A stretch of DNA of 64,000 nucleotides from Candidatus Latescibacterota bacterium. Lineage in GTDB: Bacteria; Latescibacterota; CBDEFO01. Positions within the stretch are counted from its first letter, which is position 1. Each line of letters begins with the position of its first letter. Below are positions 14,729 through 52,924 of this stretch, in pieces. The translations under genes and the position numbers were made by a program. A model generated the notes under the pieces. The model did no database searches, was not told the DNA's origin, and was given only the letters and a program-made list of their open reading frames with translations. The stretch lies in contig CBDEFO010000003.1 in the NCBI GenBank assembly GCA_965237525.1, forward strand, positions 128,001-192,000, read 5' to 3'.

Positions 14729-15358
14729 CTACCTTGAGTAGAACTCCACAATCAGCTGTTCTTCGGCCGGAGTTGGGATGTCCTCCCTGGTGGGGATCGC
14801 AAGCAAAGTGCCTGTCAGATTCGCCTTGTCTACAGAAAACCATGAAAGTTCCTGTTCCGGAACCATCCTACTCAAAGAGGCATGGATCATCTCCATCTGT
14901 CTGCTTTTCTGTTGTACCTTGATCGTATCCTCTACACAGACCAGATAAGATGGAATGTCAACCAACTTGTCGTTTACCAGAATATGCCTGTGTCTCACTA
15001 ATTGCCTGGCCGCCTTCCGGGAAGGCGCGAATCCAACTCTATAGACGATGTTATCCAGACGTCTCTCAAGCAGTCTCAACAGATTCTCTCCCGACTCTCC
15101 CTTCTGTCTGGACGCCTTTTGGAAATACTTCTTGAATTGCTTCTCCAATATCCCGTAGGTTCTTTTGACCTTCTGCTTTTCCCTCAGTCTGATTCCGTAT
15201 TCGGAAAGTTTTCTTCCGTGACGTTGACCATGCTGGCCCGGACTGTAGGCTCTCTTTTGGATAGCGCACTTGTCCGAGAAACATCGCTCTCCCTTCAAGA
15301 AGAGCTTGGCTCCCTCACGTCTGCACAACTTGCAGTTGGCATCAGTGTATCTTGCCAT
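14729..15358 (-). CDS. rpsD: 30S ribosomal protein S4
   Basis: [29 protein letters not shown]. Confidence 0.98.
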
Positions 15359-19609: not shown

Positions 19610-20125
19610 TTATGCTCTATGATGCAATGTCCTCAGGTCAATGTCGCGCTCAAGGGCAACGCTTTCCGGGTCTCTGAGCACCTTCAATGCCTCCATAGTT
19701 GCTTTGGCTGCGTTGTGCGGATTCTTCGACCCCAAAGATTTGCTCAGCACGTTTTGAATCCCTGCAGCTTCCAGGACAGCTCTTATTGATCCTCCTGCTA
19801 TCACACCCGTACCTGGGGAAGCTGGCTTCAAAAACACCTTTCCGGCTCCGAACTTCCCAACGATCCAGTGTGGAATAGTACCGTTCACCAGGGGTATGAT
19901 GTACATATTCTTCTTTGCCGCCTCTGTACCTTTTCTGATCGCCTCTGAAACCTCACCTGCTTTTCCCAATCCCAAGCCTATGTGTCCGTTCTTATCCCCT
20001 ACGACAATTAAAGTGTTGAAGCAGAACCTGCGTCCCCCCTTCCTTACGTGAGCCACCCTATGGATAGGAGGAACTACAGCCTCAACCAATTCTCCCAAAT
20101 CATCTGATTTTACGCGACGCGCCAA
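19610..20125 (-). CDS. rpsE: 30S ribosomal protein S5
   Basis: [23 protein letters not shown]. Confidence 0.97.
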
Positions 20126-20643: not shown

Positions 20644-21228
20644 TTATATTGCAGTCTTGCCAGCTTTCCGTCGTACGAACTCACCGTCGTACCTGATTCC
20701 CTTCCCTTTGTATGGCTCAGGTGGTCTCAAGAATCGGATATTCGCTGCCGTTTGACCTACTACCTCTTTGTCTATGCCACGGACGGTGATAATTGTGACT
20801 GTGCCCTCCACCTCACCACCTACTATATTCAGCTGACTGGGACTTGCTGTTTGGACCTCAAATTCGATGTCGTCAGGGGCGAGAACTGTGACCGGGTGGG
20901 AAAACCCTAATAGGAGCCTCAAGTTTTTTCCCTCTACGTCGGCTCTATATCCTATTCCTATCACATGGAGTTTCCTTTCAAATCCCTGAGTGACCCCAAA
21001 GACAGCGTTTGCCACCAAGGAGCGAGTCAGTCCCTGGAGCGCCTTCCCTGCTCTATCGTCAGAACGAGGGTAAACCTCGACTCGACCGTCCTTAAGCTTA
21101 AGCTCCACTTTGCTGTTCAACTTTACGGTCAACTCACCCTTTGGTCCCCTGACCATAGCCCGATCTTTGTCTACGTTTAAACTCACTCCCTGGGGAATAT
21201 CGACAGGTTTTTTGCCTATCCGCGACAC
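20644..21228 (-). CDS. rplF: 50S ribosomal protein L6 (with ~15-aa insertion)
   Basis: GTG start at 21228 (SRIGKKP); RPPEPYKGKGIRY. The ORF-track N-terminal extension comes from a repeat. Confidence 0.96.
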   Translation of the reverse strand: MSRIGKKPVDIPQGVSLNVDKDRAMVRGPKGELTVKLNSKVELKLKDGRVEVYPRSDDRAGKALQGLTRSLVANAVFGVTQGFERKLHVIGIGYRADVEGKNLRLLLGFSHPVTVLAPDDIEFEVQTASPSQLNIVGGEVEGTVTIITVRGIDKEVVGQTAANIRFLRPPEPYKGKGIRYDGEFVRRKAGKTAI

Positions 21229-28792: not shown

Positions 28793-29986
28793 TTACTCTA
28801 AAACCTTTGTTACCACGCCTGCGCCTATGGTTCTCCCGCCCTCGCGGATAGCAAACCTGAGTTCCTGCTCCATAGCGATGGGCTTCTCCTCCAGATCCAC
28901 AGACATCGTGACGTCGTCTCCGGGCATGATCATCTCAACACCCTCAGGGAGCTGGACAACTCCTGTCACATCGGTTGTTCTGAAGTAGAACTGCGGGCGG
29001 TATCCGGAAAAGAAGGGCTTTTCCCTTCCACCTTCTTTTGCGTTCAATATGTACACCGAAGCTTCGAAACTCGTGTGAGGTGTTATGCTTCCCGGATCCG
29101 CGATCACCATACCTCTTTCTAGTTCTTCCTTATCCACGCCCCTTAAAAGGAGACCGACGTTATCTCCGGCGATGCCTTGATCCAGAATCTTTCTGAACAT
29201 CTCTACACCCGTCACTACCGATTTTCTCGTCTCCCTCAGCCCTACAATTTCCACCTCATCTTGAACATTAATCGTGCCTCTTTCTACCCTCCCTGTTCCG
29301 ACAGTTCCCCTACCTGTGATGCTGAAGACATCCTCAACAGGCATCAAGAATGGTAGATCCACGTCCCTTTCTGGAACCGGGATATATTCATCCACAGCAG
29401 CCAACAGCTCGTCTATACACTGTGTATTCTCGTTGTCCTCTTCCGCCTCCACGGCCAAAAGCGCAGAGCCTCTTATCACGGGGATCTCGTCTCCTGGAAA
29501 CTCGTACTCGCTCAAAAGTTCCCTTGTCTCCAGTTCCACCAGCTCTAAAAGGTCAGGATCATCGACCATATCTACCTTATTGAGGAACACTACGATATAC
29601 GGCACGTTCACCTGGCGTGCCAGAAGGATATGCTCCCTTGTCTGAATCATGGGCCCATCTGCTGCTGATACGACCACGACAGCTCCGTCCATTTGAGCGG
29701 CACCCGTGATCATGTTCTTGATATAATCCCTGTGGCCAGGACAGTCAACGTGGGCATAGTGCCTCTTTTCTGTCTGGTACTCCACGTGGGAAATCGCGAT
29801 AGTGATGCCTCTTTCCTTCTCCTCCGGAGCCTTGTCAATCTCTTCGAAGGGGGTGTAATCGGCAAGTCCCTTTCTGGCCAAGACCTTCGTTATAGCAGCC
29901 GTTAAGGTCGTCTTTCCGTGGTCTATGTGGCCGATTGTGCCGATGTTCAGATGGGGCTTTGTCCTTTCAAACGTTTCCTTTGCCAT
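28793..29986 (-). CDS. tuf: elongation factor Tu
   Basis: [30 protein letters not shown]. Confidence 0.99.
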
Positions 29987-32904: not shown

Positions 32905-33276
32905 TCAGCTGGGCTTCTTTGTGCCATATTTGGATCTCCCCTGCTTCCTGTCAGTAACGCCCATAGTATCCAGAACCCCACGTACTATGTGATACCTCAC
33001 ACCCGCAAGATCCTTAACGTGTCCGCCTCTTATAAGAACAATAGAGTGTTCCTGAAGATTATGACCTTCGCCTGGTATATAAGCTGTCACCTCGATACCG
33101 TTAGTCAACCGTACCCTTGCTGTCTTCCTCAGTGCAGAGTTCGGTTTTCTAGGAGTTGACACCCTTACCTGAACGCACACACCTCTTTTTTGAGGCGATC
33201 CACCAAGTGCTGGTGTGGACGTCTTGTTGGAGGCCTTCTTGCGCCCCTTTCTGATCAATTGATTTATAGTGGGCAA
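32905..33276 (-). CDS. rpsL: 30S ribosomal protein S12
   Basis: TTG 33276 (PTINQL); [22 protein letters not shown]. Confidence 0.98.
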
Positions 33277-43150: not shown

Positions 43151-43592
43151 TTATCTAAGTCCAGATTGCCAGTATTCCGCCTGAAATAACCTGAAATAAT
43201 AAGTAGAACTAAAATGTAATGTATTAATAAAGTAGGGTTTTACCGGTTTGTCTTCCCACAAAACGCTGGCCAGTAGAACTGGGCAGATGAATCCAATCCA
43301 AACCAAAAAACCCGCCTCTACTCCTTGAAGTGAAGAGGTTGCATGCGTATACGCAATAATGTTGGCTAGTACGTAACTCATTAATAATACTCCAATAAAC
43401 GCTGACACATAAGATTTGCCCATTCCCTTTGCTTTTTCTTTTTCCAGCTCCTCTTCACTCATGCCAATAAGTCTTACCCATGCATTTCCGAACAGAATTG
43501 GAGAGTACCATAATGCTCCTATTACGCTTGGTGTACATAGAAATAAGCGATACTATGAAAACTGCTGGAAGGTTAATTTCTGGTAGTGGCAT
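43151..43592 (-). pseudogene. DUF1761-family membrane protein, frameshifted
   Basis: MPLPEINLPAVFIVSLISM (ATG 43592), frameshift, then VIGALWYSPILFGNAW...MGKSY. The 3' end is disrupted, including a 10-nt tandem duplication CCTGAAATAA at 43180-43199. AT-rich. Confidence 0.75.
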
Positions 43593-50839: not shown

Positions 50840-52358
50840 AAGCCTTGTGAAATAGTTATGTCCCAGGCAGCGTCTGAAGCGCCGATTATGGGTCAAAGAG
50901 TAGCATATCGTATCGTTTTGCTGTGGAATAAGCAAAATAGTCTTATCAGAGTTCTGGTCAGCAAGGAACAGGAGCTGTTTGAAGAACAGGATGCACTGTC
51001 TTTGACAGACAGGGCACACATAGACGCTTTCCCCCTTCTTATGAAAGATACAAGCCTCTTGAGATTCTGTACTGTTGCAACAAGATTCAACTGTTCATTC
51101 AGTGAGGCTGGTCCTCTGTAACGGGCTCGTCCCATACCGTGTTGTTGCCTGGCTTCAGCAAAGATATGTTCACTGCGTTTACGGAGTCTCCGGGAGAGTT
51201 TGTAGTCAGCTGTTAATGAGATAGACCGTGCATGATTTCTGGCTTTCGCCTCTCGCACTTTTCTATCCCGTTCGGCCTGAATATGTGCTGGATTTGTCTT
51301 GTTTTTCCATGTAGGAATCGGTCCAATCTTCTCATCGGCTCGCAGAGGAATATGGGGTATGATTCCCCGGTCAAGTACATCAGCGATAAAATTACCAGAA
51401 CCGTAACCGGTATCGGCACTAAGTGTCTGAATGTCTTTGGGCATGGTCTATGTTTCAAGGTCATCTACCATCTTAAGGGCACTTTCGGGCTCTGCTGTCC
51501 CTGTCGCCTGCGTGCCCTGAGTCTCAAGGATTACTCTGCTTTTTGTGTCGATCAGATCATGGCCCATAAACGAGAGAAAAGCCCCTTTGCCCTTCGATTT
51601 GCTGTATAAGCGCGCGTCGGGGTCTGTAGTCGAACGGTGTGTTTGGTTCGTCCACTTTTCACCATGAAAGTCTTTATCCTGAGGATGCCCGGACCTACCC
51701 TTTGTCTTATCACCTTCAAAACCGATTCCCTTGAGATAATCATCAAGAGAAACAGGGGGTTCTATCGGCTCAATACTTTTCACTGAAGCATCAGCTTGTA
51801 TCTGAGTGCCGTCGACACTAAGGTGTTTACCGCTCACAACACCGACATCTATGCAACACTGGACTACCTGACGCATTATCCGTTCAAACAACCCACTGGA
51901 TGCCCACTTGTGATTGCGAAGCTTGTTGATCGTGCTCCTATCCGGAACCGCATCATCAAATGTCTGATGACAAAACAACCGATATGCCGCATGCATCCCC
52001 ACTTCCTGACAGAGCCGATTCTCACTCAAATTATACAGATAGCCAATAAGGATCATTCGAACAACTAATTCAGGATCAATACCGGGTCTGCCATTGTCAG
52101 GGCAATAACAATCTGATACAACGTCTCGTACAAATGAAAAATCAACTGCCTCATCAATCTGACGAAGGATATGATCCTCGGGAACTAAATCCTCCATCTG
52201 AAAATAGTGAAACATCGGATTTGTCTGTTCCTGCTTTTGTGGGGTCATTGTTTCCTCCATATATAATATTATCAATAACATAATATAATACATCGGAGCT
52301 GCTTTATCAATGCTTGTTCTATACTACTTTCTGAATCTAAGGGTTTTTCACAAGGCTT
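50840..52358 (-). mobile_element. IS1182-family insertion sequence, 1519 bp
   Basis: 13-bp perfect TIRs AAGCCTTGTGAAA at both ends; 4-bp TSD TTAG at 50836-50839 and 52359-52362; removing it restores the host reading frame locally. Confidence 0.92.
50893..52248 (-). pseudogene. IS1182-family DDE transposase with one in-frame amber stop
   Basis: LVPEDHILR, GRPGIDP, VDGTQI.ADAS, TTDPDAR, ADTGYG, EHIFAEAR. The two track ORFs share a frame, separated by TAG 51448-51450 + ACC. Confidence 0.88.
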
Positions 52359-52924
52359 TTAGATTGCCCTCTGTAATCTGCTGATGGTAGACGTCGTAGA
52401 GCAATATCACATCAGGACTCATTGCGTCGTCTACAATCTCTACACCCTGTTGGGTTGTGGAGAGATAATACCCTTATAGTTGACGAGAATGTTTAAAGGT
52501 TCCACGATCAAAGTTGCTCCCTTATCCTCGGCGTAAGGAACGATTTCTTTTAGAAGATCTACTATGTATTTGTGCTGTCGAGATCTGCTCAGATCAGGGT
52601 TCTCCTGCCCTACTTCGACTATGAGATTTTTGCAATTTAACTCTACGGACGCGTCTATTGAGTCTTGTGTCTCATCAATGAAGTCTTCTCTTTTGGAAGG
52701 ATCGACCAGCGATCCGTCGGAGTTGTCAAAAGCGGCTATCTCCATGCCAGATACTGAAACCGTTGACTTGAGGGCATCCAGATCCTTATCACTCCATCTC
52801 AAAACTCGAATGCCTTAAGACCAGCAGAACCCAGCTTTCTTATCCTCTCCTTGATCGGAAGGTGCTTATAGAAAGACTCTATGCACCCTGAAAGTCTGAT
52901 CATTTGATCTCTCCGTGTGAGACC

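What the first reader, a model, noticed from the sequence alone, without database searches (positions are those of the whole stretch)
33004..33150. S12 carries three decoding-centre substitutions at once: K42R, R85H, P90A (E. coli numbering)
Seen: AGA (Arg) at 33148-33150, CAC (His) at 33019-33021 and GCG (Ala) at 33004-33006, in an otherwise intact rpsL at the normal str-operon position. Known: K42R is the classic non-restrictive streptomycin-resistance allele. R85 and P90 changes give resistance, dependence or hyper-accuracy in laboratory mutants, and they neighbour the methylthiolated D88. The S4 C-terminus and the S5 G103/R111 equivalents look intact, so no classic ram compensator is visible. 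Inference: a natural triple variant implying altered fidelity or streptomycin insensitivity.
Basis: partly seen in the sequence, partly recalled or inferred. Interest (0 to 1): 0.72.

Follow-up and report, generated by a model that had tools for sequence, protein, structure and literature searches.

The report
Natural streptomycin-pocket rebuild in uncultured bacterium
This uncultured bacterium's only ribosomal protein S12 carries three changes that each give streptomycin resistance in laboratory mutants, and its 16S rRNA is also changed at the drug pocket, so its ribosome is likely drug-insensitive, with changes that probably offset one another.

Summary
Confirmed. The single rpsL encodes K42R, R85H and P90A. 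The triple is also in the sister species and in contigs of two further runs (one 23/801 bases divergent), so it is a fixed genus trait, not an error. Each residue is a described Thermus allele (K42R, P90A resistant; R85H pseudo-dependent). New here: the single 16S rRNA has C526A, which mismatches the G505-C526 pseudoknot pair at the streptomycin site (2 of 168 phylum genomes, both this genus). Five of 18 conserved-site 16S changes fall in helix 18, and rimO is missing (present in 119 of 125 phylum genomes). The triple is rare but not unique: the identical R/H/A recurs in Chloroflexota-type S12, and 14 of 115 metagenomic K42R proteins change all three sites. P90 changes are enriched on K42R and are almost all small residues, as laboratory rules predict. 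C526A and rimO loss did not track the triple elsewhere. Best reading: K42R-permitted, internally compensated drift of the decoding centre, with streptomycin insensitivity as a likely by-product; fidelity untested. Natural rpsL resistance alleles are published (Ngo 2026), and this scan noted similar cases in Poribacteria and Patescibacteria. New variant of a known kind.

The parts
32905..33276 (-). rpsL, ribosomal protein uS12, 123 aa, TTG start; only copy in the genome
33148..33150 (-). K42R (AGA); streptomycin-contact residue, common natural variant
   Evidence: same in G001
33019..33021 (-). R85H (CAC)
   Evidence: H in 1 of 227 other S12
33004..33006 (-). P90A (GCG)
   Evidence: A in 1 of 227 other S12
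33010..33012 (-). D88, conserved; predicted unmodified because rimO was not found in G000 or G001
33160..33162 (-). T38V (GTG), a further change at a near-invariant site flanking the 41-46 loop
   Evidence: T in 227 of 227 others; codon
33121..33123 (-). V51T (ACA), a further rare change on the other side of the loop
   Evidence: V or I in 227 of 227 others; codon
32323..32793 (-). rpsG (uS7), downstream str-operon neighbour, followed by fusA and tuf
19610..20125 (-). rpsE (uS5): no change at the G103/R111 region; one conserved-site change (V45I)
14732..15358 (-). rpsD (uS4): full-length C-terminus; one conserved-site change (R72K)

Best explanation
The genus's only S12 carries K42R, R85H and P90A and its single 16S rRNA carries C526A, and these likely form an internally compensated decoding centre that would translate with near-normal accuracy while being insensitive to streptomycin as a probable by-product. 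Shown: the residues, their fixation in two species, the helix-18 changes (C504U/G541A, C526A, U534C, A535G), the lack of a rimO match, and the enrichment of P90 changes on K42R in other bacteria. From literature: K42R is low-cost; P90A is resistant without dependence; R85H is pseudo-dependent; K42 changes suppress P90 defects. Inferred: K42R came first as a permissive change, its arginine making up for rRNA contacts weakened by R85H and P90A. R85H, P90A, loss of D88 methylthiolation and the G505-A526 mismatch then accumulated in the same pocket by relaxed constraint, not necessarily under antibiotic selection.
For: Each residue is a described T. thermophilus allele: K42R and P90A/C/G SmR, R85C/H SmP, bulky P90 SmD (PMC9456066 passage; PMC3884664). 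K42 changes act as internal suppressors of P90 SmD mutants. K43R has little or no cost and occurs in 359 species (Ngo 2026). In nature P90 changes to small residues: 27 of 28 among 115 K42R proteins are A, G or S. In 401 Chloroflexota genomes 5 of 7 P90-changed S12 carry K42R, against 33 of 401 overall (about 3 of 4 lineages). In a search blind to position 42, K42R was in 5 of 12 proteins with R85 or P90 changed and 0 of 76 canonical ones. K42R alone (G027) and K42R+R85A (G028) occur in the same phylum. Change is focused: helix 18 has 5 of 38 conserved positions changed against 13 of 711 elsewhere (p=0.001; two comparison genomes 0 of 33). S12 has 6 of 61 against 60 of 1479 in 27 other proteins (p=0.04). 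The lineage's branch is not long.
Against: No phenotype was measured. K42R is not required: K/H/A, K/R/A, K/H/P and K/R/S proteins exist (7 of the 12; G237 and G305). The order of events was not tested on a rooted tree. Kin inflate all the p-values, and fast-evolving groups change all sites together. C526A was absent from 7 of 7 P90-changed Chloroflexota genomes, including 4 triple-type ones, so the rRNA change may be independent. G003 shows as much conserved-site 16S change (29 of 760 against 18 of 749), so some divergence reflects sparse sampling. No coordinates were available to measure contacts; the contact argument is recalled.
Confidence: 0.55

Rival explanations
1. Antibiotic-driven target remodelling: repeated exposure to streptomycin or a similar compound from neighbouring producers selected each change (K42R, R85H, P90A, C526A) for stepwise higher resistance.
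For: All four sites are resistance sites: streptomycin contacts C526 and G527, and M. tuberculosis C517U in helix 18 is a resistance allele (PMC10525438 passages; its mapping to E. coli 526 is recalled). The identical triple arose in an unrelated lineage. G000 holds a streptomycin-adenylyltransferase-family gene.
Against: K42R alone already gives resistance at low cost, so further changes add little. rsmG, whose loss adds resistance, is kept. The adenylyltransferase gene is split by one of 134 copies of an insertion sequence and was not found in G001. No APH(6)-family match in either genome. Habitat was not established.
Confidence: 0.2
2. Net change of fidelity: the lineage has a hyper-accurate, slower ribosome because R85H and P90A are restrictive and are only partly offset, comparable to the K60R variant of hyperthermophilic archaea.
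For: R85 changes are pseudo-dependent. No ram-type change in S4 or S5. The homologous K-to-R in archaeal uS12 raises accuracy in eukaryotes (PMC8570412 passages).
Against: No reverse gyrase over cut-off, so no sign of hyperthermophily. The genome has a tRNA-Sec, so UGA recoding is probably working. Bacterial K42R is described as non-restrictive (abstract of PMC2916820).
Confidence: 0.15
3. Loss of RimO came first, and the neighbouring R85 and P90 then changed to fit an unmodified D88.
For: RimO over cut-off in 119 of 125 phylum genomes, not in G000 or G001; their two methylthiotransferases are MtaB and MiaB (G000). 0 of 4 triple-type Chloroflexota genomes have RimO. Methylthio-D88 lies beside m7G527 (PMC7550191 passage).
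Against: 47 of 73 background Chloroflexota genomes also lack a RimO match, and 3 of 3 P90-changed non-triple genomes keep it. G003 lacks RimO and keeps K42, R85 and P90.
Confidence: 0.08
4. Assembly or sequencing artefact, or a silent second copy.
For: Support is from contigs, not raw reads; helix 18 was not covered in the 16S lay.
Against: Same codons in two species and in contigs of separate runs; one rpsL and one 16S per genome; A526 in both assemblies.
Confidence: 0.02

Closest known systems
Natural ('intrinsic') rpsL streptomycin-resistance variants across bacteria (Ngo, Letten, Engelstadter 2026, bioRxiv 10.64898/2026.06.09.731231; 43R in Wolbachia, Ehrlichia and others)
   Same: Fixed K43R (K42R) in the sole rpsL of an untreated lineage.
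   Different: Adds 86H and 91A, which are outside that paper's eight-mutation panel (it names 86C and 91L at these sites), plus 16S C526A, outside its four rrs sites; the paper screened RefSeq reference genomes and reports intrinsic rrs variants in only 8 species.
Thermus thermophilus laboratory S12 alleles K42R (SmR), R85H (SmP), P90A (SmR), and K42 suppressors of P90 SmD mutants
   Same: The identical three residues; small residue at P90 as in the non-dependent class.
   Different: All three in one natural protein, with T38V, V51T, an altered helix 18 and no RimO; no report of this triple was found in searches.
16S helix-18 pseudoknot streptomycin mutants (M. tuberculosis A514C and C517U; T. 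thermophilus C507A and G524U)
   Same: Change in the 505-507/524-526 pseudoknot at the drug site.
   Different: C526A leaves a G-A mismatch with G505 unchanged, is fixed in a single-copy rRNA of two species, and comes with U534C and A535G; no paper holding C526A with 16S and streptomycin appeared in one search.
Archaeal uS12 K60R of thermophiles (Martinez-Miguel et al. 2021, PMC8570412)
   Same: Natural K-to-R in the same loop of uS12.
   Different: There an isolated change tied to high temperature; here one of several changes, with no reverse gyrase.

Membership tests
uS12 (PF00164), functional housekeeping copy | Full-length match with intact PNSA, GEGHN and D88/R93 motifs | tested here: met
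uS12 (PF00164), functional housekeeping copy | Single copy at the head of the str operon (rpsL-rpsG-fusA-tuf) | tested here: met
Intrinsic rpsL streptomycin-resistance variants (Ngo 2026) | At least one panel allele (43R) present | tested here: met
Intrinsic rpsL streptomycin-resistance variants (Ngo 2026) | Fixed in the lineage, no sensitive second copy | tested here: met
   G000 and G001, one match each; runs
Intrinsic rpsL streptomycin-resistance variants (Ngo 2026) | Measured resistance to streptomycin | not testable with these tools
   uncultured organism; needs allele replacement or in vitro translation
Streptomycin-dependent S12 (SmD class) | Bulky residue at P90 | tested here: not met
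   Ala at 90; small residues give SmR
Error-restrictive (hyper-accurate) ribosomes | Lower misreading and readthrough than wild type | not testable with these tools
   no assay; sequence gives opposing signals
Restrictive S12 compensated by ram S4/S5 | S4 C-terminal truncation or S5 G103/R111-region change | tested here: not met
Helix-18 pseudoknot variants | Uncompensated change in a 505-507/524-526 pair | tested here: met
   G505 with A526; 506-525 and 507-524 intact
Obligate S12-16S co-evolved module | C526 change accompanies triple-type S12 in other lineages | tested here: not met
   C526 kept in 7 of 7 P90-changed Chloroflexota genomes; non-C526 16S in 2 of 401, neither with K42R

The most novel reading that the evidence does not exclude
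A free-standing bacterial lineage runs a decoding centre whose 530-loop pseudoknot has lost one of its three G-C pairs (G505-A526), made viable by a matched S12 (K42R, R85H, P90A, T38V, V51T, unmodified D88). The K42R-R85-P90 path is a repeatable evolutionary route, taken independently in several phyla, and gives a natural solution to the resistance-versus-accuracy trade-off.
Probability: 0.25. Interest if true: 0.7.

Novelty: new variant of a known kind. Interest (0 to 1): 0.45.

Why it matters
The S12 loops and the 530 pseudoknot set translational accuracy, and what is known comes from single laboratory mutants. A natural combination of three characterised alleles, a mismatched pseudoknot pair and no D88 modification is a ready-made epistasis test in T. 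thermophilus. The survey also suggests that laboratory rules (small residue at P90 tolerated, K42R suppresses) predict what evolution accepts. It shows that panels built on RefSeq miss multi-site natural variants in uncultured phyla. It has no clinical bearing: an essential chromosomal gene in an environmental bacterium.

Tried and rejected
Raw-read confirmation was not possible: all laid runs are contigs. The 16S lay did not cover helix 18 and X11 laid nothing, so A526 rests on two assemblies. Habitat labels of small-share runs were not verified and are not used. Long-branch explanation: rejected for proteins, since G000's conserved-site change rate (66 of 1540) is within relatives' range (27 of 1513 to 91 of 1575; G009 left out because its EF-Tu row matched EF-G). 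EF-Tu as compensator: its odd motifs are shared with relatives, one private change N355D. S4/S5 ram: not found. rsmG loss: not found; RsmG activity on an A526 loop is unknown. RsuA/RluB-family synthase: one match, not assigned. Thermophily: no reverse gyrase. Insertion-sequence burst as cause of drift: it is specific to G000 (134 copies against 2 near-identical in G001) and so postdates the shared triple. C526A and rimO loss as general partners of the triple: not supported. Viral scan for the Chloroflexota-type triple: nothing. ESM Atlas on S3 did not settle the phylum. One search's alignment had G000 on the wrong strand and was redone. Powers and Noller 1991, Carr 2005, Gregory 2009 and Demirci 2013 (Nat Commun) were not held; their content is cited only through other papers or marked as recalled.

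Full report
Observation. The window holds a complete rpoBC-str-S10-spc-alpha cluster on the minus strand. rpsL is 33276..32905, 123 aa, TTG start. Codons 43, 86 and 91 are AGA, CAC and GCG, which against E. coli K-12 S12 (fetched) are K42R, R85H and P90A. It is the only S12 gene in G000 (96.6% complete).

Not an artefact. G001, a second species of the genus in one contig (97.9% identical over the locus), has the same codons. Contigs of runs X1, X2 and X8 span the gene unchanged at all three codons. X1 may be the source of this DNA; X8 differs at 23 of 801 bases; X4 covers only codon 43. These are contigs, not raw reads.

Rarity. Among 227 other S12 (28 phylum relatives, 80 named genomes, 119 nearest proteins; chosen by likeness to the query) K42R occurred 5 times, R85H once, P90A once and the exact triple never; T38V and V51T never. 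At sites conserved in E. coli and all sampled relatives, G000 changes 6 of 61 in S12 and 60 of 1479 in 27 other proteins of the cluster (p=0.04). S4, S5 and EF-Tu show one such change each. A FastTree tree of S12, S7 and part of EF-G (107 rows) nests the genus among its phylum relatives near Zixibacteria, Glassbacteria and Bacteroidota, without a long branch. Earlier scan notes call the genome Latescibacterota; I checked only the neighbourhood.

The rRNA partner. G000 and G001 each have one 16S gene. Aligned with E. coli rrsA and 33 phylum relatives, both carry C504U/G541A (compensated), C513G, C526A, U534C and A535G in helix 18. The complementary GGC 505-507 and GCC 524-526 of E. coli become two pairs plus G505-A526. 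The pseudoknot is described in PMC9014874 (passages; its legend prints 507-509, while the sequence complementarity gives 505-507). A non-C at 526 in the primer-site pattern was found in 2 of 168 phylum genomes, both this genus; 100 of 151 phylum genomes had a 16S match. Against 11 relatives, 5 of 38 conserved helix-18 positions are changed and 13 of 711 elsewhere (p=0.001; p about 0.003 counting the compensated pair once); G003 and G008 have 0 of 33. Streptomycin contacts C526 and G527, and helix-18 changes give resistance or dependence (PMC10525438 passages). Helix 27 positions 910-915 are unchanged, and the A1409-U1491 pair is shared with the relatives shown. The 16S lay did not cover helix 18, so A526 rests on two assemblies.

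Modifying enzymes. RimO scored over its cut-off in 119 of 125 phylum genomes at least 90% complete. The six misses are G000, G001, G003 and three fragmented genomes. G000's two methylthiotransferases are MtaB and MiaB. D88 is therefore predicted unmodified. rsmG is present.

Elsewhere in bacteria. Of 115, R85 was changed in 30, P90 in 28 (27 to A, G or S) and all three in 14; none was R/H/A. By eye this set includes Patescibacteria-like and organelle-like proteins. A search on residues 58-100, blind to position 42, returned 119 other proteins: 29 lacked position 42 and 2 had false N-termini. Of the 88 left, K42R was in 5 of 12 with R85 or P90 changed and 0 of 76 canonical. Three of the five (P0207, P0208, P0225; one clade) have the identical R/H/A triple and an N-terminal insertion like that of named Chloroflexota, so the triple arose at least twice. 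In 401 Chloroflexota genomes, P90 was changed in 7 and K42R present in 33, with 5 in both. These are about 3 of 4 lineages; G173 lacks the insertion and may be misbinned. No control counted how many of the 401 hold a matching rpsL. R85 was changed in 7 of the 31 K42R proteins translated.

Results against a fixed module. All 7 P90-changed Chloroflexota genomes keep C526. Only 2 of 401 had a real 16S with another base there (U and G), neither in the K42R list. RimO was missing in 4 of 4 triple-type genomes but also in 47 of 73 background genomes, and present in 3 of 3 other P90 variants. R85 and P90 changes do occur on K42 (7 of 12). G003 has 29 of 760 conserved 16S changes, more than G000's 18 of 749.

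Literature. T. thermophilus K42R and P90A/C/G are resistant, R85C/H pseudo-dependent and bulky P90 dependent (PMC9456066, one passage). K42 changes suppress P90 dependence (PMC3884664, part 1 of 6 and passages). Ngo et al. 2026 (parts 1-4 of 5 read; supplement closed and may list combinations) report 43R in 359 of about 15,700 species, Arg at 86 in 99%, only seven species with other or combined panel alleles, and low cost of K43R. Also seen as passages: PMC8570412, PMC7550191, PMC4224418. Searches showed no paper on this triple or on C526A; most subscription papers are not in the library. The lead to Ngo et al. came from an earlier scan note.

Mechanism. Shown: the sequence states and their co-occurrence. 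From literature: the single-allele phenotypes. Inferred: K42R is the cheap, common, permissive change; R85H and P90A, which alone would impair tRNA selection, are tolerated on it; the helix-18 mismatch and the unmodified D88 are further changes in the same pocket in this genus. The ribosome is likely streptomycin-insensitive and likely near-normal in accuracy (0.55). Selection by antibiotic (0.2), net hyper-accuracy (0.15), a rimO-first path (0.08) and artefact (0.02) remain.

Verdict. Real and fixed; a new multi-site variant of a known kind. The interesting additions are the uncompensated C526A, the convergent identical triple and the match between natural and laboratory rules at P90. The scan has noted comparable S12 and 16S rebuilds in Poribacteria and a K42T in Patescibacteria. 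Interest 0.45.

Noticed in passing
window 50845-52362 (minus); genome-wide: One copy of a 1.5-kb insertion sequence (DUF772 + DDE transposase) that has 134 near-identical full copies in G000 (203 kb, about 4% of the genome) but only 2 near-identical copies in G001: a recent burst.
   Followed up: partly
G000:C8:1794917-1797276 (L351): A streptomycin-adenylyltransferase-family gene (PF04439) is split in two by that insertion sequence; no match in G001.
   Followed up: partly
G000:C8:1626480-1626498: C526A puts a mismatch in the middle of the 515F primer site (primer sequence recalled), so amplicon surveys may under-count this genus.
   Followed up: partly
L113 (16S of G000), E. coli positions 961-976: Head-domain changes private to the genus: U961C with A974U, G976A, A968U, U965A; also C564U and a G1414-A1486 apposition in helix 44. 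Unexplained.
   Followed up: no
L116 (G003 16S) and G003 S12: G003 also lacks RimO and carries 16S A915G plus S12 G91S; G91S/A is widespread in families f6, f7 and f13 of this phylum.
   Followed up: partly
window 20656-21228 (rplF): L6 has an insertion of about 16 residues against E. coli; most relatives have an insertion of varying length at the same place, G003 none.
   Followed up: partly
window 28793-29986 (tuf): EF-Tu has Arg after the catalytic His (shared with G003) and Ile for Pro in the MPQTREH motif (shared with five relatives).
   Followed up: partly
   Followed up: no
window 43151-43462: A 103-aa hydrophobic ORF sits between rplA and rplJ, an unusual place for an extra gene; not searched.
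   Followed up: no
L312-L314 (G541, G445, G421): Chloroflexota with K42R/R85Q/P90A also have U1409-A1491 and U531C in the 16S.
   Followed up: no
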